Shown here one piece after another: positions 1 to 52,823 of a stretch of 64,000 bases of DNA. Numbering within the stretch: position 1 is the stretch's first letter; the number at the start of each line of letters is the position of its first letter. This DNA is from Nanobdellota archaeon. Its GTDB lineage: Archaea > Nanobdellota > Nanobdellia > Pacearchaeales > GW2011-AR1. Location: assembly GCA_021818475.1 (NCBI GenBank), contig JAKADZ010000001.1, positions 5,997-69,996 of the forward strand. The letters are read 5' to 3'. Both the position numbers and the translations under genes were made by a program. Under the pieces are notes generated by a model. It saw nothing but the letters and a program-made list of their open reading frames with translations. It did no database searches and was not told where the DNA came from.

Positions 1-3000
1 CTGGAATTCCCATAAACATTTTTTAACCTTATATCAGATGTGCAAATTATCTGCCCATTTGCATCTGTTGTCAATGAACAGCTTTTTGCAGTTGTTTGAG
101 TTATATTTCCATTAACAGATAATTTTGCAATCGGGCTTGTTGTTCCTATTCCTACATTTCCTGTATTATTTTGTATGTATAATCTTGTTGCAGTTACAGG
201 GCTGTCAACAATAGAATATCCTCCATCACCCGGTCTTAATCCAGTAATCCAATTATAAGTTGCACCTGTTAAATATTGTAACTGTGCAGAATAAGTTATG
301 TTTCCTCTTGAAATATCTATTGCTGTCCCTGCGGAACTATTTACCATAAAATTATCTAATGGGCTTGTTGTTCCTATTCCTACACTTCCTGTTGAACCAT
401 CAATAACTAATGAAGGAGTATAAGTTAAAGCACTTGGGTCTGAACCATAAGCTTGACTATTAGTTGAACGTTGTATTACAAAATTAGGGTAACCTGATGT
501 TCCAAACCCTGTATATGCTGAACCTAATTTAACAGCTCCTTGAGTAGTCCCTAAATCATTTGTTAGATAAACCTGAGAACCATAATCCCCACTTCCAGTG
601 CTTTCTAACCATACGTGCTGATTTGTTGCTGCCCCGAATCTTGAAGTTCCTGCTACATCTAATGTTGCTTGTGGAGTATTTATTCCAATTGCAACATGAC
701 TCACAGGGAAAGCAACAGAATTATCTGTGATATTAAACCTTTGTAAAATGGCTCCTGTTTTTGAAATTCCAAAAATATCCTGACCTGGTGTCCCGAATGA
801 ACCAAACAAACCATGCCCTGTATTATTAACATCAACGACAAATTGTGCAGTCCCATTAACGTGTATTCCATTTGTTGCTGAAGAGCTGAGAACATCAAGA
901 GTATATTGAGGATTAGTTGTTCCTATTCCTACATTTCCCCCTGTTGCTGACAAGAAAACATTCCCTCCTGAATTAATTGATAAATTCTGCCAATTTGCAA
1001 AATTATCTGTTGATGCTCCTATCGCCACTGCACCAACTCCATTGTCTGTTCTCTTAAATACTTGAAGATGAAAATTACTTGCAGTTTGAACATCAAGAGG
1101 ACTATTAGGTAAAGTTGTTCCTATCCCTACATTTCCCGTTCCATTCTGAATTGTTAATCTATTTGTTGCTCCATTTTCATAAATAAAGAAATTTCCATTT
1201 GGATTTGGTCCTCCTCCAGAAGTCCCCATAGCCCATCCAAGATTATTCGCATTTGTATTTATAATATCTAATCCTATTGAATTAGTTGAAGTCCCATTTA
1301 TTAAAAGAGCATTTATTCCATTATAATTTAAAGTTAAAAAATTTGTCGGGCTTGTTGTTCCTATTCCTACATTTCCATTTCTAAGAATAGTCATCTTTGT
1401 TACATAAGGAGATGTTCCTGTCGCTGCAGTATCAAATAATAAATCTCCTCCTCCCCCAGATTGAAGAACAGTTCCAATTCTTGAAATATTATTTACTCCT
1501 GCACTATATCCAAAATTGATATAACTAGTTGTTCCAACACTTCCACCGCTTTGCCAAATTCCAAGGTTTGGAGAAGCAGAATTAATATCTAATATATCAT
1601 CTGGAGAAGTTGTTCCTATTCCAACATTTCCTGAAGTTCCATTAATAAACATTCTTGAAGTTAGAACATAATTTGTATTTGCAGTTAATCCAGAATTTCC
1701 AGAAAATAATAAGTTTCCCAAAGAATCAAACTGAATTACGGATGCGGCAGTTCCTTCCGTTTGCCAATAACCTGCCGTGTTATATTGAGCAGTTCCTACC
1801 CAAGCACCATTACCTGCAGTAACTTGTCCCATAGATAAACTTTGAACACTTGAAGTTCCTTGTTTTAGTTTAAATCCAGTATATCCTCCAATTCCCCCAG
1901 CAGCATTTATTTCTAAAGTTGCTCCTGGGCTTGTTGTTCCTATTCCTACATTCCCCGTTCCATTTGCAATTACTAAATCTTTAACATTTGTTGCACCATC
2001 TGCAATATAAAAATAACCTGCCAAAGGATTTGGTGTTACTGCTACTACTCCTGCATCCCATGCAGAAATACTGTTATTATATCTTATTATTGGATAATTT
2101 GAAGTTCCTGACCCTGCTAAAGTCTGCAACTGTAATAACACCTGAGGATTAGTTGTTCCTATTCCTACATAATTAGAATTTGCATTAACAAATAAAGTCC
2201 CTCCATTCACAGTTAGATTACTGGTTAAATTTGTAGTTCCAACAACGTTTAAAGTTGCCTGAGGATTGCTTGTTCCTATGCCTACATTCCCTCCTGTTCC
2301 CCCCATTAAATAAAGATTATTTCCAATTTGCATAGGGAGGTTTGTAGCATTTGAATAATTTCTTGCATTTAATATACCATAATTTGTGGTAGGGTCAAAA
2401 TTCATAACTATTGCTCCTGATGTTGAACCTAAATCATCATAAGTTGCACTTCCAGTTGAATAAATTCTTCCAGTTGATTTCAATGATGTTGCTCTTGCAT
2501 AACCATTAACATCTAAAGCTACATTAGGTGAGAGTGTTCCAATTCCTACATTCCCTGATTGGAGTATATTAAATACTCTTCCAGAAGAAGAAGTAGTTCC
2601 ATTAACTATGCTTAAAGAGTTAGTTCCATCTTGATTATAATCATTAATAATTGTCCATCTTGGAACATTTCCATCGGTTACAGTATTAATAAAATCAATT
2701 CTTGAAGCTCTGTTAGTTGCCCCGTTTCCTGCAATTAATTTTAAATCTGCTTGTCCTGTTCCCGCACTTGCATTAATATTTATTTGCGAACTTGTTCCTC
2801 CAGAACTTTGAATATCTAATAAAGCATTTGGACTGCTTGTTCCTATTCCTACATTTCCAGTTGTATTTTGAATAGTTAATCTTGTTGCAACTCCTGTTTC
2901 ATCAAAATATAAATTACCCCCAATATTATTTATATCCCATCTTTTCCCCGTGGAAAGTGCGTCTGTAGAATTAAAAATTATTGCTGTGTTATTCCCATCT

Positions 3001-4640: not shown

Positions 4641-4849
4641 ATTTTTAGGGCTTAAAGGTTTAAAAATCTTGTTGGAGAGTAGAGTAAAAATTTTCCCTAC
4701 CCTTAATAACCCCGTCGTGAAAATTTTGTTTTAAAGATTTTATTTCGCAAAAACAAAGAATTTTATTTTTTAATAAAAAATAGAATTAAATCAGGAAATT
4801 TTTGAAATTTTTTACTGCTAAATTCTTATCTTTTGAGGAAAGTTTGATA

Positions 4850-5057
4850 AAGAAACCGCGTAGGTTTCGTTCATCAGCCTTGAGCACACTTTCAAGGGGA
4901 AAATGATTGTAAAGAAACCGCGTAGGTTTCGTTCATCAGCCTTGAGCACACTTTCAAGGGGAAAATGATTGTAAAGAAACCGCGTAGGTTTCGTTCATCA
5001 GCCTTGAGCAGTATCTTAAAGGGAGATGTTGATAAGAAGAACCGATAAGGTTCTGCT
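4850..5057 (-). repeat. Tandem 62-bp repeat array (family A): three near-identical units plus one diverged unit
   Basis: The unit hairpin GAAACC starts at 4852, 4914 and 4976 (period 62), with a diverged unit at about 5039. On the minus strand each unit reads TGAACGAAACCTACGCGGTTTC...CCTTGAAAGTGTGCTCAAGGCTGA, with two 6-bp hairpins and a CTGATGA junction. Confidence 0.9.
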
Positions 5058-5170: not shown

Positions 5171-5299
5171 TGAGCCTACACGGATTTGAACCGTGGACCC
5201 CTGCCTTTCTTAGGATTCAATCGAGTCCTTGAAAACAAATTCCTAAACGGGATTTGCTCTTATAAGAGCAGTGCTCTAACCGGGCTGAGCTATAGGCTC
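5171..5299 (-). tRNA. tRNA-Ile (anticodon UAU) with an intron of about 54 nt at 37/38
   Basis: Manual fold: acceptor GAGCCTA/TAGGCTC, D arm GCTC-AGCCCGGTTA-GAGC, anticodon stem CTGCT/GGCAG, loop CTTATAA, T arm CACGG-TTCAAAT-CCGTG, discriminator A. Loop positions 32-35 (CTTA) pair with intron TAAG, followed by a 3-nt bulge, as in a bulge-helix-bulge (BHB) splice motif. Confidence 0.8.
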
Positions 5300-10668: not shown

Positions 10669-10720
10669 CTAATAAATTAGGTTTTTTTATTTTTAAATTA
10701 TTGTTTTGTTACCCATTAAG

Positions 10721-10846
10721 ATTAGGTGTCGTAATCAGTCTTGAACCTCTCTCAAAGGAAAGTTTGATAAAGAAAACGATTAGGTGTCGTAATCAGTCTT
10801 GAACCTCTCTCAAAGGAAAGTTTGATAAAGAAAACGATTAGTTGTC
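10721..10846 (-). repeat. Tandem 58-bp repeat (family A variant), two full units plus a partial third
   Basis: attaggtgtc recurs at 10721 and 10779, and atta at 10837 (period 58). The array begins at the stop codon of the upstream minus-strand gene. Confidence 0.85.
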
Positions 10847-15885: not shown

Positions 15886-17493
15886 ATGACAGAAAAACCA
15901 GTTGTTCTTATGCCGGAAGATATTCAGAGAATTATGGGAAAAGATGCGCAGAGAAATAATATTCTTGCAGCACGAATGGTGGCAGAGATGGTTAAAACAA
16001 CACTCGGACCAAAAGGAATGGATAAAATGCTTGTCTCTCCGACAAATGAAATAATTGTTACAAATGACGGAGTAACAATTCTTGAGGAAATGCAGATTGA
16101 GCATCCTGCTGCGAAGATGATGGTTGACATTGCAAGGACGCAGGATTCTGAAGTCGGCGACGGGACTACAAGCGTCGTTATGATTGCTGGAAAATTATTG
16201 GAAAATGCCGAGAGATTACTTGACAAGAAAATTCATCCAACTGTGATCGCAAAAGGTTACAAAATCGCTGCAGAAAAAAGTCAGGAAATCTTAAATGAAA
16301 TTGCACTAAAAATAATTCCGGATAACGATGATATTCTGAAACAGGTGGCGATGACATCAATGACCGGAAAAGGTGCAGAAAGTTCAAAGGAAAAATTTGC
16401 AGATATAATCGTAAAAGCAATAAAGCAGATACAAACTGATGGAAAAATTGACCTGAATGATATTAAAATAGAAAAATCAAAGGGAGACGGCATGGCTGAT
16501 ACAGAATTAATTTCGGGGATAGTTATAGATAAAGAAAAAATTTCAAACGATATGCCTCCCGTCGTAAATGGTGCAAGAATTGTTCTTATAGACTTTCCTC
16601 TTGAATTAAAAAACCCCGAGATAGACACGAAAATTTCAATTTCCTCTCCGGAACAATTGCAGGGATTTCTGAATCAGGAAGAGAGATTGATAAAAGAGAT
16701 GGTTTCTAAAGTTAAAGATACTAACGCAAATGTTGTTTTCTGCCAGAAGGGAGTTGATGAATTTGCGCAATATCTTCTTTCAAAATCAGGAATTTACGCC
16801 TGCAGGAGAGTTGCAAAGAGTGATATGGAAAAATTAGCGAAGGCAACAGGAGGAAAAATTGTCAGCAATCTTAATGAATTATCTCCTTCAGAATTGGGAT
16901 TTGCAGAAACAGTAGAGCAGATAAAACATGGAGACGATTCTTTTACCTATGTTCGTGGTTGCAGGAATCCAAAAGCAGTAACGATTTTAATTCATGGAGG
17001 GACAAGCCACATAATCGATGAGATTGAAAGAGCATTTAAAGACGGGCTTGGAGTTGTAGCTTCTTCATTAAAAACAAGAATGGTTGTTCCGGGTGGAGGG
17101 GCAATTGAAATGGAGCTGGCAAAAAGATTGAGAACTTTTGGACAGTCCCTCAACGGGAGAGAACAACTGGCTGTTGAAGAATTCGCTTCTGCTTTGGAAT
17201 TTATCCCATCAACTCTTGCAGAGAATGCAGGACTTGATCCGATAGACGTTCTTACAGAATTAAAATCAAAACATGATGCAGGGGAAAGAAATGCAGGATT
17301 AAATTTATTCAACAATAAAATTGAAGATGTATTGGCTGCAAGGATAATTGAACCTTACAAGATAAAATCTCAGGCAATTAATTCAGCGAGCGAAGTTGCT
17401 AATATGATTTTAAGAATTGACGATGTTATTGCTTCAAACGGAAAAGGAAAATCCGGAAGCAGCATGCGGACAGAAATGAACGAGGAATTCTGA
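15886..17493 (+). CDS. ths: Thermosome subunit (group II chaperonin)
   Basis: 535 aa with [28 protein letters not shown] and IIEPYKIK, the classic thermosome/CCT signatures. Confidence 0.95.
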
Positions 17494-17564
17494 TTTGATT
17501 TCATCATTTCTTGTTAATTTCTTAAGTTATATGCCCTCGGCTTTGCCCCGAATTACCTTGCTCC

Positions 17565-17586
17565 GAAATCGACTTCGCCAGATTTC
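17565..17586 (+). repeat. 22-nt covarying 3'-end hairpin (GAAATC-GACTTCGCCA-GATTTC)
   Basis: 6-bp stem; lies 72 nt downstream of the thermosome stop on the same strand. Confidence 0.7.
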
Positions 17587-17665
17587 TCCGCCAGAAAATA
17601 ATTAATGGGGGAAAATTTAACATCTGGTTCAACTTTCAATTTTACGGAGACAGATTTTGAGTGAA

Positions 17666-17687
17666 GCATCTTGACAGAGTCTGATGC
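17666..17687 (-). repeat. 22-nt covarying 3'-end hairpin (minus strand GCATC-AGACTCTGTCAA-GATGC)
   Basis: 5-bp outer stem plus an inner GAC/GTC stem; lies 67 nt downstream of the stop of the minus-strand gene 17754..18233. Confidence 0.7.
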
Positions 17688-17753
17688 GGAACGGTATAAA
17701 ATAATTTGAAAATCTTAAAGATTTTCAACAAGATTGCGAAGCAAGAAATTTCC

Positions 17754-18233
17754 TTATTCCTTAATCGGCTGGGCGTCAACAAATTTATTTTCTAAGAATT
17801 TTCTTTCGAGAAGTTTTTCTTTTTCTATTGTATCCTCGTTATATTCATAAACTGCACCATAAACTTCTTGATAACTGACATCTGCTTTATCTTCTAATTT
17901 AAATCGGTCAAATATTTCTTTATTATCTACTTCGAAATCTACTTTCCCGGAAAATACAACTTCATACTTTTCGGGGGTTGTTCCAGTGACGACATTCATT
18001 CCTCCAAGACCATATCCGAATCCGTTGGTTCCAAAACCAAATCCTCCTTCGTGATTAGTAATCGACACTCCTATATCGGTTTCTGTTTTTTCAGGAACAT
18101 ATTTATGTAAAGTTACTATCGCAGTTTCATGTTTTATTTCAGAATATTCTGTTTTATACTCACTACATGCTCCAATTCCCAAACTTGCTACAGCGAGAAT
18201 TCCTATCCCTAAAATTTTGGTTATGTTTTTCAT
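17754..18233 (-). CDS. Putative lipoprotein, hypothetical
   Basis: 159 aa with a signal peptide and a lipobox-like LGIGAC. The start lies 1 nt after the stop of the upstream gene. Confidence 0.6.
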   Translation of the reverse strand: MKNITKILGIGILAVASLGIGACSEYKTEYSEIKHETAIVTLHKYVPEKTETDIGVSITNHEGGFGFGTNGFGYGLGGMNVVTGTTPEKYEVVFSGKVDFEVDNKEIFDRFKLEDKADVSYQEVYGAVYEYNEDTIEKEKLLERKFLENKFVDAQPIKE

Positions 18234-21192: not shown

Positions 21193-22044
21193 TTATGTAA
21201 AAAGTACATAAGCAACACACCCAAGAATTATAAGCGAAGACAAAATATTCTTCCAGTTTAATTTTTCTTTAAGGAATTTATTTGCAAGTATATAAGTTTC
21301 AATTGGTGCAATCATCATTATCAAAGTTGTGAGAATTATTCCATAATGCTGATACCCGTAATAGTTGGCAACTCTGTAGATTACATATATTATTTCAGTG
21401 ATTAATATTACGAATACACTTTTTTTATCTACCCCTTTAAAATTCGGCTTGAAAATCATAAGACTAATAATCAGCACAAAGGCGCATCTGAGAAAATAGA
21501 ATGTTAATGGAGAGTAATAATCAAGAATAAATTTGGACAGCACCAGTTCCAGTCCGAATAAAAAACTGCCGGAAATTGCGGCAATAAAATATTTGTTTAT
21601 GTGGAGATGTTCTTTTTTTATAAAAGGAAAAATTAAAGCAGCTAATGCAATAAGCGTCGGAATTATAACCTTGGTGTTTGTATCAGAAAATCCCTTGATA
21701 AATAATCCTATTATTAAAGTTATAATAATTACAAAAAAAGTTTCAACAATTAGGGCAGGTTCAATATTTGTTATCTTTGTCCTTTTTTCAGAATGAAACA
21801 TGAGAAAGTTTGCGCCTACTGCTGAAATTATTACTGCAAAAAAAATTAATACATTCTTTAGTTCAAACGCAGACGAATCCAGTTTCCAGAAAAAAAATGT
21901 TAGCGGGATCATGACAAGAACAAGAAATAAAAAACTAAGACTTTGATACAGTTTGACTCCTATTTTTTTATTCAGAAGGTTAAATTTATCGAGCACAGTC
22001 CCTGCCCCAAGTGCAATTGCCCCCAAAATTGGAATCGTTATCAT
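21193..22044 (-). CDS. EamA/DMT-family transporter
   Basis: 283 aa with about 10 predicted TM helices in two similar halves. Confidence 0.65.
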   Translation of the reverse strand: MITIPILGAIALGAGTVLDKFNLLNKKIGVKLYQSLSFLFLVLVMIPLTFFFWKLDSSAFELKNVLIFFAVIISAVGANFLMFHSEKRTKITNIEPALIVETFFVIIITLIIGLFIKGFSDTNTKVIIPTLIALAALIFPFIKKEHLHINKYFIAAISGSFLFGLELVLSKFILDYYSPLTFYFLRCAFVLIISLMIFKPNFKGVDKKSVFVILITEIIYVIYRVANYYGYQHYGIILTTLIMMIAPIETYILANKFLKEKLNWKNILSSLIILGCVAYVLFT

Positions 22045-22045
22045 T

Positions 22046-22105
22046 TGAACGACACCTCCGGTTTCTTTACACTCATTTTCCCCCTGAATTTGCCGTCAAG
22101 CCTGA
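22046..22105 (+). repeat. Left arm of a perfect 60-bp inverted repeat (one family A unit)
   Basis: tgaacgacacctccggtttctttacactcattttccccctgaatttgccgtcaagcctga is the exact reverse complement of 23095..23154 (checked base by base). Confidence 0.9.
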
Positions 22106-22219
22106 TTACCATCTCTTTTAATTAATATAATAGTAAGAGGTTTAAAAGAATTATGCACTCCCCTCCAAAGGGAAATTTTTTATCACCTCTTTTTTCATAG
22201 ATAGTTTATTATATTTATC

Positions 22220-22328
22220 AGTTGAGCAAACGCGTTAAATTTTTCTTCATTAATAATTTTTCCTAAACGGAGAAATCTGACAGAGTCGATTTCGTAGCAG
22301 TTAATCTGCGAGCGAAGCGAGCGTATCA
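22220..22328. repeat. Dispersed ~110-bp repeat family B1 copy, containing the 22-nt hairpin at 22272..22293
   Basis: AGTTGAGCAAACGCG...TTTTTCTTCATTAATAA...GAGAAATCTGACAGAGTCGATTTCGTAGCAG...GCGAGCGAAGCGAGCG aligns with 27554..27662 and 34892..34990. The hairpin is 53 nt downstream of the tRNA-Gly 3' end on the minus strand. Confidence 0.75.
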
Positions 22329-22345
22329 TAAATATTTCAAAGAAA

Positions 22346-22447
22346 TGCGCGGGCCGAGAGTCGGACTCGGATCTCCTCGTCTTTGCTGGTGAAGAGCTTA
22401 AAGTTCCCCATTGGCAACGAGAAATTCTGCCGTTTAACTACCCGCGC
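22346..22447 (-). tRNA. tRNA-Gly (anticodon GCC) with an intron of about 31 nt
   Basis: Acceptor GCGCGGG/CCCGCGC, anticodon stem TCTCG/CGAGG (T-G wobble), loop TTGCCA-intron-A, T arm CCGAG-TCCGACT-CTCGG (unusual T loop) and a weak 3-bp D stem. TTGC pairs with intron GCAA, followed by an AGA bulge. Confidence 0.7.
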
Positions 22448-22498
22448 TTATTGATTGTTATTTTTATTAGAAAACTATCATTTAAAAAATTAACACAT

Positions 22499-23004: not shown

Positions 23005-23154
23005 TTTAAATAAACCGCGTAGGTGTCGTTCATCAGGCTTGACCACACTTTCAAGGGGAAAATGATTGTAAAGAAACCGCGTAGGTGTCGTTCATCAGGC
23101 TTGACGGCAAATTCAGGGGGAAAATGAGTGTAAAGAAACCGGAGGTGTCGTTCA
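23005..23154 (-). repeat. Tandem 62-bp family A array directly abutting the tRNA-Val 3' end (right inverted-repeat arm = 23095..23154)
   Basis: Unit hairpins start at 23011, 23073 and 23135 (period 62). On the minus strand the first unit begins TGAACGACACC immediately after the tRNA-Val discriminator A. Confidence 0.9.
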
Positions 23155-23226
23155 TGGTCCATAGAGGAGTCGAACCTCTCCTTCCTCGGTGTAAACGAGG
23201 TGTTCTAGCCGATAGACTAATGGACC
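23155..23226 (-). tRNA. tRNA-Val (anticodon UAC), no intron
   Basis: Acceptor GGTCCAT/ATGGACC, anticodon stem CCTCG/CGAGG, loop TTTACAC, T arm AGAGG-TTCGACT-CCTCT, discriminator A; 72 nt. Confidence 0.85.
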
Positions 23227-27429: not shown

Positions 27430-27444
27430 TCCAAAGATTTGATA

Positions 27445-27520
27445 CACTCGCTTCAAAGTCGCTCGCAAATTTTCTGGTTCAGAAACTGACTCTGTCAAGT
27501 TTCTTCACAATTTTTATTTG
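27445..27520 (+). repeat. Dispersed repeat family B2 copy, containing the 22-nt hairpin at 27482..27503
   Basis: cactcgcttc...attttctggttcaGAAACTGACTCTGTCAAGTTTCttcacaattttt aligns with 52598..52663. The hairpin is 53 nt downstream of the Trm gene stop. Confidence 0.75.
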
Positions 27521-27553
27521 TTATAACAGAAAAATTAAAATGCGTTTATAATT

Positions 27554-27662
27554 AGTTGAACAATCTTATTTCAAATTTTATCTTTTAACTTTTTCCTTTG
27601 AGGAGAAATCTGCTGGATGCGATTTCGGAGCAATAATTTAACGAACGAAGTGAGTGAATTGA
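27554..27662. repeat. Family B1 repeat copy with a degenerate hairpin at 27605..27626
   Basis: agttgaacaatc...tttttcctttgaggaGAAATCtgctggatgcGATTTCggagcaataatttaacgaacgaagtgagtg aligns with 22220..22328. Confidence 0.7.
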
Positions 27663-27775
27663 CTCCGAATTCTTTAATCAACGTTTGCTTAACTATTTAA
27701 CCTTAAAAAAGGGGTGATAAAATTTTCTTAAAACCCCCTAACTTAGTGTAAATAATACATATACTAAACCCCAAT

Positions 27776-27789
27776 AATCTTTAAATAGT
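27776..27789 (+). promoter_or_regulatory. Archaeal BRE/TATA-like box AATCTTTAAATAGT
   Basis: Lies about 25 nt upstream of ATG 27809 and is the same 14-mer as 45388..45401. Confidence 0.5.
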
Positions 27790-27808
27790 GTAATAAATAC
27801 ATTAAGTT

Positions 27809-28666
27809 ATGGAAAAACAAACAAGAATTACTTATGTCGAAGGATGGCCTGAAAATGTCCCGCTTAGCTTCGATTATCTTCAATCATTAAAAATTACAGA
27901 GAGATTAACTGGTACGGGAGATTTGTACAGAGCAGGAAGAGTTTGGAATTATGAGGGGTCTTTAGAAAGAGAAGATTTTGACGCGATTGATAAAATATTT
28001 CGCTCAGACCAATATCTTGAATTGGCTTCAGATAAAGAAAAATTTTTAGAAAGATTAAAACTTGCTTTAAATAAAGAGAAACTATTAACAAATACATTGC
28101 ATGAAACTCAAATTATTCATCCTCTTCCAAAACGAACTCCCCGAAAAGGCATAATCGGGAAATTATTTAGACAATATGATTTTGTAGAACAAGAACCTTA
28201 TAAAAAAGAAACAGATCACATTGGAAATATTGAGCTTCAGACAAGTAAAAATCTTATTGGAGAATTGGAAAAAATAATCGAGAAATACGGGATGCCTGAT
28301 TCAGCTATTTCTGCCCAATCATTGATTTTAAAAGAAGCCAAAAGGAATGGGGACTATTCTAAAATTGGAGAATACTTAGAATTTGTAAAGTCTAATCATT
28401 CGAATATAACTGTTTTTTTGGATAATGAACTTAAGGGAACGATACAATTTATTCCAGATGAAGAAAAAAGAAACTCTTATATTGGAGCTTATCCTGGAGA
28501 ATATGACCCCGTAAATATAAGAATTGATGTGAACGGAAAAGTGATCACAATTGAAAAAAATATGTGGTGTTGTGGTCAGGGAAATGTCACTCTTTGGGAA
28601 TTGGATGAGAAAATAAGAGAAGAAATATTAAATGAGAAGGTTGCTCATAGATTTGTAGAAGGATGA
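27809..28666 (+). CDS. Hypothetical protein, overlaps the Nudix gene start by 4 nt
   Basis: 285-aa ORF with no recognisable motif; ATGA-type coupling to the next gene. Confidence 0.55.
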   Translation: MEKQTRITYVEGWPENVPLSFDYLQSLKITERLTGTGDLYRAGRVWNYEGSLEREDFDAIDKIFRSDQYLELASDKEKFLERLKLALNKEKLLTNTLHETQIIHPLPKRTPRKGIIGKLFRQYDFVEQEPYKKETDHIGNIELQTSKNLIGELEKIIEKYGMPDSAISAQSLILKEAKRNGDYSKIGEYLEFVKSNHSNITVFLDNELKGTIQFIPDEEKRNSYIGAYPGEYDPVNIRIDVNGKVITIEKNMWCCGQGNVTLWELDEKIREEILNEKVAHRFVEG

Positions 28667-29328
28667 AATTTGCTGATTTTCCAAAACCATCGGTTACAGC
28701 AGATATAGTAATTTATACAATTCAGAATAAAGAATTGAAAGTATTATTGGTCAAAAGAAATATTGAACCTTTCAGGAATAAATGGGCATTGCCGGGGGGA
28801 TTTGTTCGGATAGAAGAATCATTGGAAGATGCTGCAAAAAGAGAACTTCGGGAGGAAACTGGTGTTGAGGAAGTTTATCTTGAACAGCTTTACACATTTG
28901 GAGAACCCAAACGAGACCCAAGGGGAAGAGTGATAACTGTTGCTTATATGGCTTTGATTAATTCAGAAAATATTTCTCTAAAAGCATCAACCGATGTTTC
29001 AGAAGCTGGATGGGTTATGATAAAAAAAATTCCTGAACTTGCATTTGACCATAAAAAAATCCTCGATTATTCCCTGAAACGATTAAGATGGAAATTTGAA
29101 TATACTCCTGTAGCATTTTCTCTCCTTCCTAAGAAATTCACCTTAAGCCAGATTCAAAGAATCTACGAAATCGTTTTCAATAAAAAATTTGACAAGAGAA
29201 ATTTTAACAAAAAGATTCTTTCACTTAATATCCTAAAAGAAGAGGGCATAAATAAAGACGTTCCATACCGCCCCCCAATGATGTACTCACTTAAGAAAAA
29301 TATCGATGAGATAGTCGAAATCCTTTAA
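28663..29328 (+). CDS. Nudix hydrolase with a C-terminal NrtR-like winged-helix domain
   Basis: Nudix box GGFVRIEESLEDAAKRELREETGV. The C-terminal ~90 aa (FDHKKILDYSLKRLRWKFEY...FTLSQIQRIYE) resemble the NrtR DNA-binding domain. Confidence 0.75.
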   Translation: MKFADFPKPSVTADIVIYTIQNKELKVLLVKRNIEPFRNKWALPGGFVRIEESLEDAAKRELREETGVEEVYLEQLYTFGEPKRDPRGRVITVAYMALINSENISLKASTDVSEAGWVMIKKIPELAFDHKKILDYSLKRLRWKFEYTPVAFSLLPKKFTLSQIQRIYEIVFNKKFDKRNFNKKILSLNILKEEGINKDVPYRPPMMYSLKKNIDEIVEIL

Positions 29329-29421
29329 CCAAAGTTTTTTAAACTAATTTTCTTGATAAACTAATATGACAGAATCAAAATCAGGAAGATTTTGATTGCC
29401 AAAATTTAAGGAGAAAAATTT

Positions 29422-29679
29422 ATGGAAGGAAGAATTATTCAGTTCCGAAGAGGAAGGAAGACAATAGTGGAAAAGCATTTTCTTATAGAAATAGACGGAG
29501 TTTCCGATAAGGAAAAAGCCGCAAAATTTGTGGGGAAAGAAGTTGTCTGGACTTCACCTGCAGGCAAAAAAATTAAAGGAAAAGTTTCTGCTGCTCACGG
29601 AAATAACGGCATCATAAGAGCAATTTTCGAAAGCGGACTTCCGGGTCAGGCAGTTACAACTAAAGTGGAGATAAAGTAA
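29422..29679 (+). CDS. rpl35ae: 50S ribosomal protein L35Ae (eL33)
   Basis: 85 aa with FVGKEVVW...GKVSAAHGNNGIIRAIFESGLPGQA; AAGGAG lies 8 nt upstream. Confidence 0.85.
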   Translation: MEGRIIQFRRGRKTIVEKHFLIEIDGVSDKEKAAKFVGKEVVWTSPAGKKIKGKVSAAHGNNGIIRAIFESGLPGQAVTTKVEIK

Positions 29680-30864: not shown

Positions 30865-31455
30865 ATGACCGAGGAAAAAGAAAAACCACCATACTTTGAG
30901 GATTTAAACAGATATCAGTATGCTAATATCGCTGCAAGATTCTCAACTAGCGAAGAAACTGCTCCATTTGCAGCCAGCGCTTTGGAAAAATTAATTTCAG
31001 GTTTCAATCTAGATAAAGATGTTTTAGAAGGGTTAAAAGCAGGAACTTTCGCTTCAAAGGAAGGAATAGAAACTGCTATTAATGTTTATGCAGGAAAATA
31101 CCAGAAAGCATTGAATTCTTTCACCCTTCCGGAATTTTATGAAGTAAGATTTTCTACATTAAAATCTGTCCTTGGAGAGGAAAAGGCAAATGCTGCAAAA
31201 GAATTTTTTGAAAAATACAAGGACCAGACAATCGGTTCAGTAATAAAAAAAGTTTCTCAGGCTAAGGCAAAAATTGAAGACCAGACCGGATTATTTGATG
31301 ACAAGGCAAAAGAAGAAGCAAAGAAAACTTTGGAAAAATTAAATCCCCTGGCAAAAGTAATCAGTTTTCTTGAGAACAGAAAATTCGAGGAAATGAGAGC
31401 AGATGCAACAAAATCAGCTTACAAGGAAAATCTCACACAACTTTTGGGAGTTTAA
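30865..31455 (+). CDS. Hypothetical helical protein
   Basis: 196-aa ORF, Ala/Lys/Glu rich. Confidence 0.5.
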   Translation: MTEEKEKPPYFEDLNRYQYANIAARFSTSEETAPFAASALEKLISGFNLDKDVLEGLKAGTFASKEGIETAINVYAGKYQKALNSFTLPEFYEVRFSTLKSVLGEEKANAAKEFFEKYKDQTIGSVIKKVSQAKAKIEDQTGLFDDKAKEEAKKTLEKLNPLAKVISFLENRKFEEMRADATKSAYKENLTQLLGV

Positions 31456-31550
31456 TTTTTATTAGATTATTTTAATTCATACTCTTTTATCACTTATTTT
31501 TTATGAACTTTTTTCTAAACTAATTTTTCTACTCTCTCATATATTTCCTG

Positions 31551-31590
31551 CGCTCCGCGCCAGACTTCGTCAAGGCGCTACGCTAAAAAT
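31551..31590 (+). repeat. Dispersed 40-nt repeat containing the 22-nt hairpin at 31557..31578 (GCGCC-AGACTTCGTCAA-GGCGC)
   Basis: cgctccgcgccagacttcgtcaaggcgctacgctaaaaat is the near reverse complement of 52716..52756. The hairpin is 102 nt downstream of the stop at 31455. Confidence 0.75.
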
Positions 31591-31611
31591 CCGTTATCGC
31601 CGCAAATTGAA

Positions 31612-31668
31612 AGTTGAACAAACGCGTTGTAATTAATTGAATCCCGATAATTTTTCTCATTAACAATT
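31612..31668 (+). repeat. Family B1 5' module only (AGTTGAACAAACGCGTTGTAATT...TTTTTCTCATTAACAAT)
   Basis: Aligns with the first ~55 nt of 22220..22328. Confidence 0.6.
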
Positions 31669-34891: not shown

Positions 34892-34990
34892 AGTTGAACA
34901 AGAATTTAGGATTTTTCTTAATTAACAAATCCCTGCGAAGAAATCTGACGAAGTCGATTTCGAAGTAAAGTAGATTTTGCGAATCAAGAA
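34892..34990. repeat. Family B1 repeat copy, containing the 22-nt hairpin at 34940..34961
   Basis: agttgaacaag...atttttcttaattaacaaatccctgcgaaGAAATCTGACGAAGTCGATTTCgaagtaaag aligns with 22220..22328. On the minus strand the hairpin is 99 nt downstream of the stop of 35060..36469. Confidence 0.75.
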
Positions 34991-35059: not shown

Positions 35060-36469
35060 TTAACTATAACTTGTCATTCCGTGAGATTTTTTATAAGCAT
35101 CAAAAAGGTCAAAAACTTTTGCTTTTGCATTTTCTGCAGTAAGCGGGCGGAGATAATTAGATTCAACCCAGTTATCAGGAGCGACGACAATTTCTTTTGG
35201 CGCTTCTTTTTTTGGTTCTTCTTTTTTTTCAAACGCGCCAAACATTGCAGTGAAAGGTTCAAAAATCTCTTTAAGGCCCATTTTTTTCTCTTCCTTTGGT
35301 TTTTCCTCTTTTGGTTTCTCTTCTAAAAATGAATTAATATCTTCCTGCAGCGGACCCAGACTGTCAGTAGTCATTCCGTTTATCAGGCTGAGAACATCAT
35401 TAACCTCAGATTTTTTCATTTCCTCGTCGAATTTTTTCAGTTCATCATCATTAAGAGCATAAGCTTTGAATGTGATATCTACTCTTCCGCCGAATGCATA
35501 ATGTCCCTGCTGAACTCTCTGTGGAATTCCCCTGAATACAAAATCAACCAAAATACAAGTGTAATAACTTCTCTGTTTGTCCAAAAATTTCGGATTTGTA
35601 AGGTCCATGGACACATTTCCTTTGGATGCTTCATCAGCAATATCTAATTTATTCTTCCCCATAAGTGTAAGTTCTAAAATAACAGTATCAAACATTTTAA
35701 CGAGAGAAGGATTCATTCCCATTTCTTTTTGTTCCAATCCTTGTGCTGCAGTAAGATAAGGTTTTACCCATCTTGAATAAAGTTTAAGGCTGTTCACCTG
35801 GCTTCTTAAATAATTTTTTTCTATGTCATATCTTTTTCTAAGTTCTTTTTCCGACTCTCCTACCCAGATATTAAATTCGTGAATTCTTGGTTTCAAAATT
35901 CTTTTTACCTGATCATTCAATTCTATTTTGTCTATGTCTTTTTCATCTTTCGCAACTAAAAAAGCATCTATCAATGTCTGGAATCCTGCCTGCCCCAATG
36001 CCATTGCCTTTATGCTGGAATTTCCTTTTGCAATATCGACCTTATCCATCCAGATTTGTTTTAACGCCAAGAATGCCCCCTCCTGCTCATTCTTGTCTTT
36101 TGATTTAACCCCGTCATAAGTCGCTAATCTTGTTTTGAATTCTTTCAGATCATAAACAATATTCAATACACTTCTCAGGACAGTATTCACATCTCCGAGG
36201 ATTTTGCTTGCCTGCTGCTGCATTATGCTTGCTCTTTGTCCGAATTCGCTGAAATGTCCGCTGCCAGGACTCGAACTGAAATTATCTACTAGTTTTTGCG
36301 GAGCAAGTCCCATATCATTCATCAAATCTAGCATAAAAAAATAAACAGGCTCAAGAGTTTCTGTAGAAGAATCATAGACGATTGTATGCGAAGCTTCCGG
36401 CGCTTTTTTCTTTTGATAATAAGGGCTGACGCTTTCAATTATTTGTGAGATTGTTTTCACCTCTGCCAT
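35060..36469 (-). CDS. Hypothetical protein with a C-terminal EEKPKEEKPKEEK low-complexity tract
   Basis: 469-aa ORF with no motif I recognise. Confidence 0.6.
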   Translation of the reverse strand: MAEVKTISQIIESVSPYYQKKKAPEASHTIVYDSSTETLEPVYFFMLDLMNDMGLAPQKLVDNFSSSPGSGHFSEFGQRASIMQQQASKILGDVNTVLRSVLNIVYDLKEFKTRLATYDGVKSKDKNEQEGAFLALKQIWMDKVDIAKGNSSIKAMALGQAGFQTLIDAFLVAKDEKDIDKIELNDQVKRILKPRIHEFNIWVGESEKELRKRYDIEKNYLRSQVNSLKLYSRWVKPYLTAAQGLEQKEMGMNPSLVKMFDTVILELTLMGKNKLDIADEASKGNVSMDLTNPKFLDKQRSYYTCILVDFVFRGIPQRVQQGHYAFGGRVDITFKAYALNDDELKKFDEEMKKSEVNDVLSLINGMTTDSLGPLQEDINSFLEEKPKEEKPKEEKKMGLKEIFEPFTAMFGAFEKKEEPKKEAPKEIVVAPDNWVESNYLRPLTAENAKAKVFDLFDAYKKSHGMTSYS

Positions 36470-45344: not shown

Positions 45345-45373
45345 TTCACAAGTTATACAATTTATGAACAAAA

Positions 45374-45387
45374 AGGTGTATACACCT
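45374..45387. promoter_or_regulatory. Perfect 14-bp palindrome AGGTGTATACACCT (candidate operator)
   Basis: Abuts the TATA-like box of the downstream operon, whose first gene encodes a ribbon-helix-helix (RHH)-like protein. Confidence 0.55.
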
Positions 45388-45401
45388 AAATCTTTAAATA
45401 G
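45388..45401 (+). promoter_or_regulatory. BRE/TATA-like box AAATCTTTAAATAG
   Basis: Lies about 25 nt upstream of ATG 45423 and shares AATCTTTAAATAG with 27776..27789. Confidence 0.5.
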
Positions 45402-45422
45402 TAGCGATTTCTTATTTTTATT

Positions 45423-45596
45423 ATGGTTTTAAAGAATCATGATTTAAGCGGGGAAGAGAGGAAGATTGTTTCTACAAGATTGTATAAGAGTGAATTCCTT
45501 TTTTTCAAGAAACTATGTGACCAGGAAGGCAAAACAATAAATACAAAACTCCGAGAGATGATTAGAGAAGAGACTGGGTTGGAGGAGGAAGAATAA
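45423..45596 (+). CDS. Ribbon-helix-helix (CopG-like) small protein, candidate controller
   Basis: 57 aa, below the track cutoff: MVLKNHDLSGEERKIVSTRLYKSEFLFFKKLCDQEGKTINTKLREMIREETGLEEEE, which fits a beta-strand/helix/helix pattern. Confidence 0.55.
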   Translation: MVLKNHDLSGEERKIVSTRLYKSEFLFFKKLCDQEGKTINTKLREMIREETGLEEEE

Positions 45597-45754
45597 TGGG
45601 AGATGATTTAGATAAAGCAATAAAAATTGGATTAGGATTACTTGGGGGTTTTATTTTATTGAATATCTTGTTTCCTGAAATTAAATGTAAAGTATGTGGA
45701 AGAAGTTTTCCTTCTGGGAGAGAAAGATGTCCGCATTGTGGAGCGGAAAAATGA
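45596..45754 (+). CDS. Small TM protein with a C-terminal zinc ribbon
   Basis: 52 aa: MGDDLDKAIKIGLGLLGGFILLNILFPEIKCKVCGRSFPSGRERCPHCGAEK. Its start overlaps the previous stop (TAATG). Confidence 0.5.
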   Translation: MGDDLDKAIKIGLGLLGGFILLNILFPEIKCKVCGRSFPSGRERCPHCGAEK

Positions 45755-46014
45755 GTCTAGATTTTGATATTGAAAAAACTATAAAACCTTTTGTTAAAGG
45801 GAGTTCACTTGGTTTAATGATATGTTCCTTAATTCTTTTATTTATCCATTACAATTTTAATAAATACTTTGGATTTTTAGTTCCAAATTGGATAGTTTTT
45901 ATTTTATGGATATATTTTATTGGTAATTCAATTGCATTATTTCTTTTTTTAAGGAACAATTTATTTGAATGCCCCAACTGCAAAAGGAGGCATAAGGAAA
46001 GAAAAAATGGATAA
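45751..46014 (+). CDS. Two-TM small protein ending in a CPNC motif
   Basis: 87 aa from MSLDFDIEK, with an ATGA overlap to the previous gene. The track's longer version (45694) would overlap that gene by 61 nt. Confidence 0.5.
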   Translation: MSLDFDIEKTIKPFVKGSSLGLMICSLILLFIHYNFNKYFGFLVPNWIVFILWIYFIGNSIALFLFLRNNLFECPNCKRRHKERKNG

Positions 46015-46636
46015 TGAAGTAAAACAGAGAGTCTTTCAGCAAGTTATGGATATCTGGATCAATCCCGAGATAGAAAAAAGAAGAAAAGAAGGAATAATCA
46101 AAGATGGAACTCAAATAACTAAAATGCAAATTGTTTTTTCTTTAGACAATGGAAACAAAATAAGATTAAATGATGAAGTTAAGGCAATCATCACAGGCAA
46201 GGCTACAAGAAATATACAAAAAGGCGAAGCAATTTATGAGAAAGATCTAAGCGGGATTGAAAATATACAATTAACTGATGAAGACACTAATTGTGGACAT
46301 ATCACATTGTTATTATTTAAGAATAATTGGATAATCTGTTTTGATGCAAGATATAATAAAGATATAATAAAGGAACATATTATTGCTTCAAAAGAATTCT
46401 ATGAAAGTGCAAAAGAAAGTTTAGAAAAAAATAGATTAAGACCATTTTATGAAAATGCCTTTGCAGTTGCTGAACTTTCTGCTAAAGGAATTTTATTGAC
46501 ATTGCCAGATAAAAAAATTTTAGAGGGTAAAAACCACAAAGATAGGATTAAGAAATTTAGAAATTGGGCTGAACTTGGTAATGTGAAAATGGAATTTAAT
46601 ACAACACTCTCTAAATTAAATGGGTTAAGAAGTTAG
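46007..46636 (+). CDS. HEPN-like domain protein, ended by a TAG inside the domain (the frame stays open to 46738)
   Basis: Starts MDNEVKQRV, overlapping the previous stop. The C-terminal half (AFAVAELSAKGILL...NHKDRIKKF...LNGLRS*ARYLASDAFKKEDANKILVTIEEMIKFAE) follows the HEPN helix pattern across the TAG at 46634..46636. The extended frame ends in an ATGA overlap with the next gene. Confidence 0.6.
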   Translation: MDNEVKQRVFQQVMDIWINPEIEKRRKEGIIKDGTQITKMQIVFSLDNGNKIRLNDEVKAIITGKATRNIQKGEAIYEKDLSGIENIQLTDEDTNCGHITLLLFKNNWIICFDARYNKDIIKEHIIASKEFYESAKESLEKNRLRPFYENAFAVAELSAKGILLTLPDKKILEGKNHKDRIKKFRNWAELGNVKMEFNTTLSKLNGLRS

Positions 46637-46734
46637 GCAAGATACCTTGCTTCTGATGCTTTTAAAAAAGAAGATGCAAATAAAATACTTGTTACAATTG
46701 AAGAGATGATTAAATTTGCAGAGGATTCAATAAA

Positions 46735-48980: not shown

Positions 48981-48981
48981 A

Positions 48982-52597: not shown

Positions 52598-52663
52598 CAT
52601 TCGCTTCGCTCATATTTTCTGAATCAAAACTGACTTCGTCAAGTTTTTCACAATTTATTTATT
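52598..52663 (+). repeat. Family B2 repeat copy, containing the 22-nt hairpin at 52626..52647
   Basis: cattcgcttcgctcatattttctgaatcAAAACTGACTTCGTCAAGTTTTtcacaatttatttatt aligns with 27445..27520. Confidence 0.75.
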
Positions 52664-52715
52664 AAAACCAAAAGAATTTGGGGTTTGTTTAGCTTTAATT
52701 TTATCTCGATAACTA

Positions 52716-52756
52716 ATTTCTTAGCGGAGCGCCTTAACAGAGTTTGGCGCGGAGCG
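52716..52756 (-). repeat. Inverted copy of the 31551..31590 repeat, containing the 22-nt hairpin at 52729..52750
   Basis: The minus strand reads cgctccgcgccaaactctgttaaggcgctccgctaagaaat. The hairpin is 74 nt downstream of the SIMPL gene stop. Confidence 0.75.
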
Positions 52757-52823
52757 AATTTATTTTGCGTTAGTACAATTAAATAAAAAAATAAAAATAA
52801 ATAATAAATAAAGTAGATTAGGC

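What the first reader, a model, noticed from the sequence alone, without database searches (positions are those of the whole stretch)
17565..17687. 22-nt hairpin family with covarying stems, placed 53-102 nt downstream of gene 3' ends
Seen: there are nine copies, at 17565, 17666, 22272, 27482, 27605 (degenerate), 31557, 34940, 52626 and 52729. Written on the strand that gives a pyrimidine apical loop, they read stem-(0-2 nt)-GAC-UYU/UUC-GUC-A(A)-stem. The outer stem varies with full compensation: GAAAUC/GAUUUC, GAAACU/AGUUUC, AAAACU/AGUUUU, GCAUC/GAUGC and GCGCC/GGCGC. One copy also covaries in the inner stem (AAC/GUU). In seven of the eight informative copies that strand is the sense strand of a gene ending 53-102 nt upstream: the thermosome, 17754..18233, tRNA-Gly, the Trm gene, 30865..31455, 35060..36469 and SIMPL. 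The convergent gap 17494-17753 holds one copy per strand. Inference: this is a structured RNA 3'-end element (termination, processing, stability or protein binding) rather than a sequence-only repeat.
Basis: partly seen in the sequence, partly recalled or inferred. Interest (0 to 1): 0.7.

Follow-up and report, generated by a model that had tools for sequence, protein, structure and literature searches.

The report
Palindromic insertion element of DPANN archaea
The nine small hairpins are real and keep their shape through compensating changes, but they look like the end-pieces of a short selfish palindromic DNA element that has spread through Pacearchaeota/Woesearchaeota genomes, even in frame inside essential genes, and not like a signal for the 3' ends of messenger RNAs.

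Summary
All nine 22-nt hairpins are at the stated coordinates: 6 strict matches against 0.04 expected, and a covariance model finds exactly these nine. The stem covaries strongly: across 113 distinct copies 97.5% of cells pair and all 9 pairs show double changes.

The 3'-end RNA interpretation does not survive wider evidence.
- The hairpin is part of a 70-100 nt unit: GC-rich terminal motif, ~12 nt, GCTC, hairpin, TCGC.
- Two units facing each other form a 125-270 nt palindromic element. Every adjacent pair seen is + then -, never - then +.
- The family is spread through Pacearchaeota/Woesearchaeota MAGs.
- Three syntenic relatives have gaps of -4 to +1 nt where the window carries these elements. 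They hold 1, 0 and 0 copies.
- Single copies in other genomes show no sense-strand bias. They occur in divergent gaps and around rRNA genes.
- Units also lie in frame inside Kae1, Elp3 and RsmB/Nop2 genes (0 stops in frame, 34 and 92 in the other frames).
- No T-tract follows the hairpins and they are weak (-4.6 to -10.8 kcal/mol).

Best reading: a MITE/REPIN/RPE-like non-autonomous element. The transposase and target duplication were not found. It is a new member of a known kind.

The parts
17534..17699 (.). Composite element 1: unit(+) with hairpin 17565-17586 (inner stem degenerate, GAC/GCC) and unit(-) with hairpin 17666-17687. It lies in the convergent gap between the thermosome gene and ORF 17754..18233. 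The outer limits are approximate.
   Evidence: The gap is absent in the syntenic relatives L124, L125 and L126.
22221..22323 (-). Single unit: GC-rich terminal motif GCGAGCGAAGCGAGCG (22308-22323 on +), hairpin 22272-22293, downstream part running to GTTGAGC at 22221. It lies between tRNA-Gly (22346-22447, -) and the EamA gene start (22044).
   Evidence: An identical ortholog is in L124 at 16675-16720.
27446..27658 (.). Composite element 2: left GC motif 27446-27466, hairpin 27482-27503 (+), hairpin 27605-27626 (-, inner stem degenerate), right GC motif 27641-27658.
   Evidence: It sits at the left edge of a ~2-kb stretch (27441-29424) that L125 and L126 lack.
31545..31619 (+). Single unit with hairpin 31557-31578 (GCGCC/GGCGC stem) and downstream GTTGAAC at 31613-31619. 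The terminal GC motif is not recognisable.
   Evidence: The orthologous convergent gap in L125 is -4 nt.
34893..34987 (-). Single unit with hairpin 34940-34961 and GTTGAAC at 34893-34899. The terminal motif near 34976-34987 is degenerate.
52600..52773 (.). Composite element 3: left GC motif TTCGCTTCGCTCA 52600-52612 (a further CGCTCGGCTCACGCCTCGCT at 52570-52589), hairpin 52626-52647 (+), hairpin 52729-52750 (-, inner stem AAC/GTT), right flank GGAGCG... to about 52773.
   Evidence: The left half is 80% identical to 27459-27536.

Best explanation
The hairpins are the conserved subterminal stem-loops of a family of short, non-coding, palindromic insertion elements of MITE/REPIN/RPE type. The family is spread through Pacearchaeota/Woesearchaeota (DPANN) genomes.

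One unit reads 5'-CTCGC-(3-11 nt, often a mini-hairpin with a TTC loop)-GCTCGC, ~12 nt, GCTC(C), the 22-nt hairpin, TC(C)GC(TTAA)...-3'. A full element is two units facing each other, so the GC-rich motifs form the terminal inverted repeats and the hairpins sit about 25-30 nt inside each end. Single units are half-elements or elements whose other half has decayed.

Shown: the elements are insertions that differ between related genomes. They land in any kind of intergenic gap, in rRNA operon spacers and, in frame, inside conserved genes where they are read through.

Inferred: an unidentified enzyme supplied in trans mobilises the element. That enzyme recognises the folded strand (stem shape, bulged A, TYY loop, CTC/TCGC flanks) and not the stem sequence. 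This would explain why stems covary between copies while the loop and flanks stay fixed.

In the window the copies are old (75-80% alike, some with broken inner stems) and probably immobile relics. Their position just after gene ends reflects where insertions are tolerated, not a 3'-end function.
For: Family and anatomy
- Conserved asymmetric flanks and always-convergent pairs. In the genome loci 14 adjacent pairs are +/- with gaps of 23-101 nt and none is -/+. All further adjacent pairs in the metagenome loci are also +/-.
- The compact composite folds as one long hairpin: L012, -40.7 kcal/mol, z = -3.6.

Distribution
- About 57 of 117 pattern-matched genome loci are DPANN MAGs, several with many contigs hit.

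Presence or absence between relatives
- The window holds 9 copies in 64 kb. The syntenic relatives L124, L125 and L126 (64 kb in all) hold 1, 0 and 0.
- The corresponding gaps in the relatives measure -4 to +1 nt where the window has 231-260 nt.
- L020 and L141 are about 95% identical overall but are rearranged exactly at one element.

Recent burst
- In MAG JAHJRR01 a repeat of up to 235 nt, 96-100% identical and carrying the unit, sits at the ends of five contigs.

Coding insertions
- Units lie inside Kae1/TsaD (3 MAGs), Elp3-like (3 MAGs) and RsmB/Nop2 (2 MAGs) genes.
- The Kae1 of L070 aligns to structure 2ivn in three blocks, with insertions at residues 89-156 and 265-357.
- The Elp3 orthologs of the window and L124 lack the insertions.
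- All 10 sense-oriented units share one codon phase.
- Over 13 x 144 nt there are 0 stops in the coding frame against 34 and 92 in the other two frames.

No orientation rule
-.

Precedent
- RPEs, and archaeal palindromic repeats fused into protein genes, are described in PMC2229807 and PMC10969869.
Against: - No transposase was identified. None appears in the Pfam annotation covering about 7.7-64 kb of the window. No multi-copy ORF family was found in about 580 kb of DPANN loci. No pair of units flanking an ORF was seen.
- Element termini and target-site duplications could not be defined.
- The hairpin is conserved across order-level lineages.
- Insertions occupy the same sites of Elp3, Kae1 and Nop2 in different MAGs. 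The hairpins at the shared Elp3 site in L036 and L027 differ by a compensating A-U to G-C change. If these insertions are orthologous, that implies selection on the structure after insertion.
- Element-bearing spacers can be far better conserved than their flanking genes: window against L124, 98% against about 80%.
- There is mild enrichment in convergent gaps: by my count, about 31% of elements against 17% of all gaps.
Confidence: 0.7

Rival explanations
1. The hairpin is a structured RNA element in the 3' untranslated region of the upstream gene. It acts in termination, 3' processing, stabilisation or protein binding.
For: - In the window seven copies lie 52-101 nt after a same-strand gene or tRNA end.
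- The stem covaries.
- Elements are somewhat enriched in convergent gaps.
- tRNA genes in the window, L068 and L075 are followed by a same-strand unit.
Against: - There is no sense bias for single copies in tandem gaps: 7 against 12, and 6 against 6.
- Copies occur in divergent gaps, inside coding sequences in both orientations, and between 16S, tRNA and 23S genes.
- Copies are absent from the orthologous gene ends of relatives, whose gaps are about 0 nt.
- No T-tract follows the hairpins, none of the nine hairpins appears among the terminator-like sites found in 17-36 kb (seven of the nine lie in that range), and free energies are only -4.6 to -10.8 kcal/mol.
- The window statistic is mostly forced by the inverted pairs and the convergent gaps.
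Confidence: 0.08
2. A host-used boundary module. The palindromic element, whatever its origin, serves the cell as a two-way insulator or terminator with outward-facing promoters. Alternatively it is the binding site of a conserved DPANN protein that recognises a folded DNA or RNA hairpin.
For: - Composite elements sit immediately upstream of the 16S rRNA gene in two different MAGs, and flank 16S, a tRNA gene and 23S in L012. AT-rich TATA-like sequence directly abuts the outer GC motif.
- Many single units have a gene start on the side of their GC motif, on the opposite strand.
- Loop, bulge and flanks are deeply conserved.
- Element-bearing spacers are better conserved than the neighbouring genes.
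- Compensating changes are seen between hairpins at a shared coding insertion site.
Against: - Close relatives do without the elements at the same gene boundaries.
- Copy number swings from 0 to many per 20 kb.
- Copies inside coding sequences and bursts of near-identical repeats at contig ends are not expected of a boundary signal.
- The TATA-like sequences were not tested against the AT-rich background.
Confidence: 0.15
3. An intervening sequence removed at the RNA level. It would be an intron-like element cut out by the archaeal splicing endonuclease or another RNase, with the hairpin as part of the recognition fold.
For: - The organism has many tRNA introns.
- The elements interrupt conserved genes for tRNA/rRNA-modifying enzymes and lie in rRNA spacers.
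- The outer GC motifs can pair and bring the two ends together.
Against: - Every coding insertion is a multiple of three in length and free of stops in the host frame, while the other frames carry 34 and 92 stops. Sense units always use the one open phase. That constraint is needed only if the insert is translated.
- No bulge-helix-bulge arrangement was apparent at the borders (inspection only).
- Most copies are intergenic.
Confidence: 0.03

Closest known systems
Rickettsia palindromic elements (RPE; Ogata et al. 2000, as summarised in PMC2229807 and PMC10969869)
   Same: Both are 100-150 bp palindromic non-autonomous repeats in a reduced genome. Both are found in intergenic DNA, next to or within RNA genes, and fused in frame into conserved housekeeping genes without destroying them. 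Copy number differs between relatives, and the mobilising enzyme is unknown.
   Different: There is no sequence relationship, and the host is an archaeon. The DPANN element has a sharply conserved 22-nt subterminal hairpin with covarying stem, a bulged A and fixed loop. It is also frequently present as a half-element.
REP / REPIN elements mobilised by RAYT (IS200/IS605-like Y1) transposases of bacteria
   Same: Both have a 20-25 nt imperfect palindrome with a conserved short flank, whose structure is kept while the stem sequence varies between families. Both occur as singlets or as inverted doublets forming a larger hairpin, and both persist over long periods.
   Different: The conserved 5' GTAG is absent; the flanks here are GCTC(C) and TC(C)GC. 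Copies here also occur inside genes. No RAYT-like gene was found in the sequence available. The outer GC-rich inverted motifs have no REPIN counterpart.
Palindromic repeats with coding potential of Methanocaldococcus jannaschii (Suyama et al. 2005; cited in PMC2229807), and archaeal MITEs in general
   Same: These are archaeal short palindromic repeats, some fused into protein genes.
   Different: The lineage is different, and I could not read the primary paper, so no sequence comparison was made. Typical MITE hallmarks (defined termini, target duplication, a parent IS) are not established here.
Hairpin-bearing intergenic repeats that act on transcripts (the S. pneumoniae terminator-like SPRITE element, PMC10969869; REP as an mRNA 3' stabiliser, from general knowledge)
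   Same: Both are small stem-loops often lying after gene ends.
   Different: No T-tract follows, the stems are weak, and there is no strand bias relative to genes.
Integron attC sites (reported in Archaea, from my own recollection; not checked in the library)
   Same: These are folded-strand recombination sites whose structure is conserved rather than their sequence, with extrahelical bases, lying after gene 3' ends.
   Different: - There are no R''/R' boxes at the two ends. GTTGAAC is central and occurs only in the window genome.
- The neighbouring genes are syntenic housekeeping genes, not cassettes.
- Copies form inverted pairs and occur inside genes.
- No integrase gene is in the window.

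Membership tests
Intrinsic / oligo-T transcription terminator | The stem-loop is followed within a few bases by a run of T (U), and is placed and oriented after the gene it terminates. | tested here: not met
   None of the nine hairpins is in the terminator-like list for 17-36 kb. The 3' flanks read TCCGCC, TTCACT and TACGCT. There is no strand bias in relatives.
MITE (miniature inverted-repeat transposable element) | Short (<300 bp), multi-copy, with no transposase gene of its own. | tested here: met
   Composite elements measure about 125-270 nt. There are 9 units in the window and 119 model hits in 559 kb of DPANN loci. No ORF lies inside them.
MITE (miniature inverted-repeat transposable element) | Terminal inverted repeats. 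| tested here: met
   The GC-rich motif plus hairpin is present in inverted orientation at both ends. All adjacent pairs are +/-.
MITE (miniature inverted-repeat transposable element) | Target-site duplication at defined termini. | tested here: inconclusive
   GGTT(C)TAGRG is seen on both sides of the first L070 insertion, and TTAA(G) lies near several ends. However, the termini could not be fixed and TTAA is common in this AT-rich DNA.
MITE (miniature inverted-repeat transposable element) | Filled against empty sites between related genomes. | tested here: met
   Window against L124, L125 and L126. L020 against L141. Elp3 with and without inserts.
MITE (miniature inverted-repeat transposable element) | A parent insertion sequence or transposase sharing the same ends. 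| tested here: not met
   No transposase domain appears among the annotated window genes. No multi-copy ORF or ORF flanked by units was found in the loci held. Only about 0.6 Mb was searched, so this is weak negative evidence.
RPE-like in-frame palindromic element (functional class, not a homology family) | Palindromic repeats found fused in frame in conserved protein genes as well as in intergenic DNA. | tested here: met
   in Kae1, Elp3 and RsmB/Nop2. There are 0 in-frame stops against 34 and 92 in the other frames.
RPE-like in-frame palindromic element (functional class, not a homology family) | The insert is translated and the host protein remains functional. | not testable with these tools
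   This is inferred only from the open frame and phase constraint. It needs proteomics or enzyme assays.
REP/REPIN-RAYT system | An imperfect palindrome of about 20-40 nt occurring as singlets and inverted doublets. | tested here: met
REP/REPIN-RAYT system | A conserved GTAG tetranucleotide 5' of the palindrome. | tested here: not met
   The 5' flank is GCTC(C), GCTAC or GCTTC.
REP/REPIN-RAYT system | A cognate single-copy RAYT (Y1 HUH transposase) gene in the genome. | not tested
   Only 64 kb of this genome is available. No such domain appears among its annotated genes.
Integron attC site | R'' (RYYYAAC) and R' (GTTRRRY) boxes at the two ends, arrays in one orientation after cassette ORFs, and an IntI gene nearby. 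| tested here: not met
   A single central GTTGARC occurs only in the window's copies. Pairs are inverted. Neighbouring genes are syntenic housekeeping genes. No integrase is present.
Archaeal bulge-helix-bulge intron | Removed from the RNA, so there is no constraint on reading frame. Two 3-nt bulges flank a 4-bp helix at the junctions. | tested here: not met
   The frame and phase constraint argues for translation. No such motif is apparent in the folds.
Any Rfam family | A score at or above the family's gathering threshold. | tested here: not met
   Whole window at gathering threshold: tRNAs only. Region 17480-17770 at E <= 10: only chance-level hits far below threshold.

The most novel reading that the evidence does not exclude
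The hairpin may be more than a relic of transposition. On this reading a DPANN-wide element persists as a long-lived genomic partner, comparable to REPIN-RAYT. Its folded 22-nt hairpin stays under selection after insertion, even inside the coding sequences of essential tRNA/rRNA-modifying enzymes and at rRNA gene borders, because a conserved archaeal protein recognises it. That protein could be a novel structure-specific transposase or a host factor that marks transcription-unit boundaries.
Probability: 0.25. Interest if true: 0.7.

Novelty: new member of a known kind. Interest (0 to 1): 0.5.

Why it matters
- Annotation. The element would give Pacearchaeota/Woesearchaeota, which have very small genomes, their own counterpart of the Rickettsia palindromic elements. 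Selfish palindromes would be inflating intergenic gaps, breaking metagenome assemblies (contig ends in MAG JAHJRR01), and adding 30-90 residue inserts to Kae1, Elp3 and Nop2-type enzymes. These inserts and long gaps should not be read as regulatory RNAs or novel protein domains.
- Population genetics. The covariance model made here is a ready marker for strain-level variation between filled and empty sites.
- Mechanism. The sharply conserved hairpin (bulged A, TYY loop, CTC/TCGC flanks) is a concrete handle for finding the enzyme that moves such elements in archaea. That enzyme is unknown for RPE-type repeats in general.

Tried and rejected
1. Rfam, at gathering threshold over the whole window and at permissive threshold over 17480-17770: no family.
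2. Terminator scan: none of the nine hairpins appears among the terminator-like sites found.
3. C/D-box or K-turn reading of the hairpin: box-like strings are not consistent between copies (inspection).
4. Bulge-helix-bulge intron: rejected on the reading-frame constraint.
5. attC site: rejected on architecture and gene context.
6. Origin-recognition boxes, uptake sequences, parS-like sites: rejected because the stems vary while the loop is fixed, and because there are too many loci.
7. Near-identical strain contigs (L001, L003-L006) are 100% identical to the window, so they say nothing about conservation.
8. A profile of the peptide encoded by the unit, searched against 5.8 billion proteins, found nothing at E <= 10. 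The query is too short and diverse (two searches were parameter errors).
9. The viral contig scan gave one weak, probably chance, match.
10. The attempt to fix termini and target duplications by aligning composites from one population failed. Several loci were duplicates or in mixed orientation.
11. The search for a multi-copy ORF (candidate transposase) among ORFs of all DPANN loci found only orthologs of ordinary genes.
12. Literature searches for DPANN/Woesearchaeota hairpin repeats or MITEs found no description of this family.

Full report
OBSERVATION

A strict scan finds six against 0.04 expected. The scan required an outer stem of at least 5 bp, 0-2 nt, GACNNNGTC, 0-2 nt, then the complementary arm. 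The remaining three copies (17565, 27605, 52729) have altered inner stems.

Aligned without gaps, all copies share one register:
- a 6-bp outer stem;
- a 3-bp inner stem, GAC/GUC;
- a UYY triloop;
- an invariant A bulged on the 3' side.

A covariance model built on this structure (R1) finds the nine at 40-55 bits when scored over the whole window with filters off. Nothing else scores above 16 bits. Strand is well defined: 27470-27515 scores 41 bits on + and 11 bits on -. As RNA the hairpins are modest, -4.6 to -10.8 kcal/mol. No Rfam family matches.

The distances to upstream gene ends are as stated. The tRNA-Gly that ARAGORN missed is real: 22346-22447 on the minus strand, 41.4 bits, with an intron.

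COVARIATION

- In the 61-sequence seed, 97.6% of cells pair and 8 of 9 pairs show changes on both sides. No shuffle of 500 reaches this, and slid controls fall to 26-54% paired.
- In 113 distinct model hits from the window, genome loci and metagenome loci, 97.5% of cells pair and all nine pairs show double changes. The middle inner pair is A-U 88, C-G 12, G-C 7, U-A 2. That alignment is fitted to the model.
- A control free of that bias: the search pattern RAAAYNGACTYYGTCARRTTTY did not enforce complementarity. Even so, 44 of 58 matches in DPANN loci are perfect palindromes in the outer six bases, against 3 of 60 chance matches in bacterial genomes.

THE HAIRPIN IS PART OF A LARGER ELEMENT

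- an upstream GC-rich motif, CTCGC, 3-11 nt, GCTCGC, whose spacer is often itself a mini-hairpin with a TTC loop;
- about 12 nt;
- GCTC(C);
- the hairpin;
- TC(C)GC, commonly followed by TTAA and A-rich sequence.

In the window the nine copies form three inverted pairs and three singles. The pairs are 17565+/17666-, 27482+/27605- and 52626+/52729-.

Across all loci every adjacent pair is + then -. There are 14 such pairs in the genome loci, with gaps of 23-101 nt, and none is - then +. All further adjacent pairs in the metagenome loci are also +/-. The GC-rich motifs therefore lie at the two outer ends as inverted repeats. The compact version folds as one long hairpin: L012, -40.7 kcal/mol, z = -3.6.

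WHOSE GENOME

The window is identical to ENA metagenome contigs. Its thermosome is 85-93% identical to proteins labelled Pacearchaeota or Nanoarchaeota.

About 57 of those are Woesearchaeota, Pacearchaeota or Nanoarchaeota MAGs, several hit on many contigs. In those loci the model finds 94 units at E < 0.01. A more specific 29-mer found 28 metagenome loci carrying 60 units.

TEST OF THE 3'-END HYPOTHESIS

1. Strand. With a crude ORF caller, single units in tandem gaps are sense 7 against antisense 12, and by my reading 6 against 6 in the metagenome loci. Six singles are in divergent gaps and nine in convergent gaps. In the window, six copies belong to inverted pairs and two singles sit in convergent gaps, so a same-strand upstream gene is almost guaranteed. 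Only 22272 is informative.

2. Conservation of place. Three syntenic relatives were fetched through thermosome homologs.
- The thermosome stop abuts or overlaps the next gene: gap 0 in L124, -4 in L125, +1 in L126. The window has 260 nt with two units there.
- The gap between the 196-aa gene and the nucleotidyltransferase gene is -4 nt in L125 and 231 nt in the window.
- The methyltransferase gene is followed after 37 nt (L125) or 58 nt (L126) by the L35Ae gene. The window instead has element 2 plus two extra genes.
- With filters off, the model finds one unit in these 64 kb, the ortholog of 22272 in L124. L125 and L126 have none.

3. Signal. No T-run follows the hairpins, and none of the nine is flagged as terminator-like.

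4. Other locations. In L012 composite elements lie upstream of 16S, between 16S and a tRNA gene, and between that tRNA and 23S. In L122 one lies just upstream of 16S.

INSERTIONS INSIDE GENES

Thirteen units lie inside long ORFs. Eleven are in recognisable genes; two are in an ORF of unknown function in L042.
- The recognisable hosts are Kae1/TsaD (L070 twice, L022, L049), Elp3-like radical-SAM/GNAT enzymes (L036, L118, L027 twice) and RsmB/Nop2 methyltransferases (L065, L115 twice).
- The Kae1 of L070 aligns to the Pyrococcus structure 2ivn in three blocks. Two inserts, at residues 89-156 and 265-357, remain unaligned.
- The Elp3 orthologs of the window and of L124 lack the inserts seen in L036, L118 and L027.
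- All ten sense-oriented units sit in the same codon phase and read S-K-x-T-x-S-x-F. This is the only phase in which the consensus has no stop.
- Over 144 nt around each of the 13 units there are 0 stops in the host frame, against 34 and 92 in the other two frames.

The inserts are therefore constrained to be translatable. This argues against RNA-level excision. It matches the behaviour of Rickettsia palindromic elements, and of archaeal palindromic repeats fused into protein genes as summarised in PMC2229807 and PMC10969869.

SIGNS OF MOBILITY AND TURNOVER

- In MAG JAHJRR01 a repeat of up to 235 nt, 96-100% identical and containing the unit, lies at the ends of five contigs. This is typical of a recently amplified repeat that breaks assemblies.
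- L020 and L141 are about 95% identical overall. They differ by rearrangement exactly at one composite element, where L141 carries other related hairpin modules.
- In the window the copies are only 75-80% alike over 60-80 nt. Two or three have broken inner stems, so they look old.

WHAT IS NOT EXPLAINED

- No transposase was found: none in the annotated window genes, no multi-copy ORF in the loci, and no ORF flanked by units.
- Termini and target duplications are undefined.
- The inserts occupy the same sites of Elp3 (after LLRLR), Kae1 (the loop at residues 210-213 of 2ivn) and Nop2 (before PGELGRSLEH) in different MAGs. The L036 and L027 hairpins at the shared Elp3 site differ by a compensating A-U to G-C change. 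These are either old orthologous inserts with the structure still under selection, or independent hits at a hot spot.
- The tRNA-Gly to EamA spacer that carries unit 22272 is 98% identical to L124, while the flanking coding DNA is about 80% identical. The L020/L141 comparison shows similar mosaicism, so recombination is a sufficient explanation but not a proven one.

These points keep alive a host-function reading, which I rate at 0.15, and the more novel reading that the hairpin remains under selection after insertion.

CONCLUSION

The best-supported account (0.7) is a MITE/REPIN/RPE-like palindromic insertion element family of Pacearchaeota/Woesearchaeota. The hairpin is its subterminal recognition structure; that last step is inferred.

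I found no published description of this family. The kind is known, so I class it as a new member of a known kind, of moderate interest.

Noticed in passing
window 4848-5010, 10720-10846, 22046-22106, 23007-23155: This is a second repeat family of about 58-62 nt. It is tandem at 4848-5010 (100% identical, offset 62), at 10720-10846 (98.6%, offset 58) and at 23007-23155. An exact 61-nt inverted copy lies at 22046-22106. Copies abut tRNA genes (5171-5299, 23155-23226) and the EamA start. Contig L002 breaks synteny with the window exactly at this repeat.
   Followed up: partly
window 5171-5299(-), 22346-22447(-), 61982-62092(-): Three tRNA genes carry long introns, giving gene lengths of 129, 102 and 111 nt. 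ARAGORN missed all three. The full-window Rfam scan missed the one at 22346-22447, which scores 41.4 bits when searched locally.
   Followed up: partly
window 27706-27722(+), about 22150-22175(-); L045 6165-6190: An AAAAGRGGTGATAA motif recurs near the elements in the window and inside the JAHJRR01 repeat. It is complementary to the 16S 3' end, so it looks like a Shine-Dalgarno sequence, but no start codon follows at a normal distance. Its role is unknown.
   Followed up: no
L012 1628-1772, 3296-3425, 3820-3950; L122 346-437: Composite elements flank the 16S rRNA gene, a tRNA gene and the 23S rRNA gene in one MAG, and precede 16S in another. AT-rich TATA-like sequence lies directly outside the GC motif.
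   Followed up: partly
window 22044-22450 vs L124 16459-16865: The whole spacer (tRNA-Gly, the unit and about 230 nt more) is 98% identical between the window and L124, although the flanking coding DNA is about 80% identical. This could reflect recombination or constraint; which is unresolved.
   Followed up: partly
window 27441-29424: A stretch of about 2 kb is absent from L125 and L126 between the methyltransferase and L35Ae genes. It holds composite element 2, an unknown 285-aa ORF and a NUDIX/NrtR-like regulator gene.
   Followed up: partly
window 17496-17752 vs L124 11609-12151: Where the window has composite element 1, the closest relative has a 180-aa ORF of unknown function. This is gene-content change at an element site.
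   Followed up: no
window 42594-51420: A type I restriction-modification locus (HsdR-like helicase, two specificity-subunit genes, HsdM) overlaps a low-GC stretch: 27-31% GC over 44-50 kb, against about 33% elsewhere.
   Followed up: no
window 112-4124: This region holds many short interspersed repeats of 23-103 nt, and no complete ORF of at least 80 aa is listed before 5764. It is probably a long repetitive gene running off the left end.
   Followed up: no
window 17627, 22221, 27555, 31613, 34893: GTTGARC lies 35-50 nt from the hairpin in five of the six element loci of the window. Overall 15 of the 18 occurrences in the window are on the + strand. The motif is not seen in the elements of other genomes.
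   Followed up: partly
L022 (Kae1 ORF 313..1551), residues about 100-125: At the site of the first L070 insert, L022 has a shorter extra segment (ELHLQARGSIKKNKNKK). It may be a remnant of an internally deleted element. L049 has no insert there.
   Followed up: no
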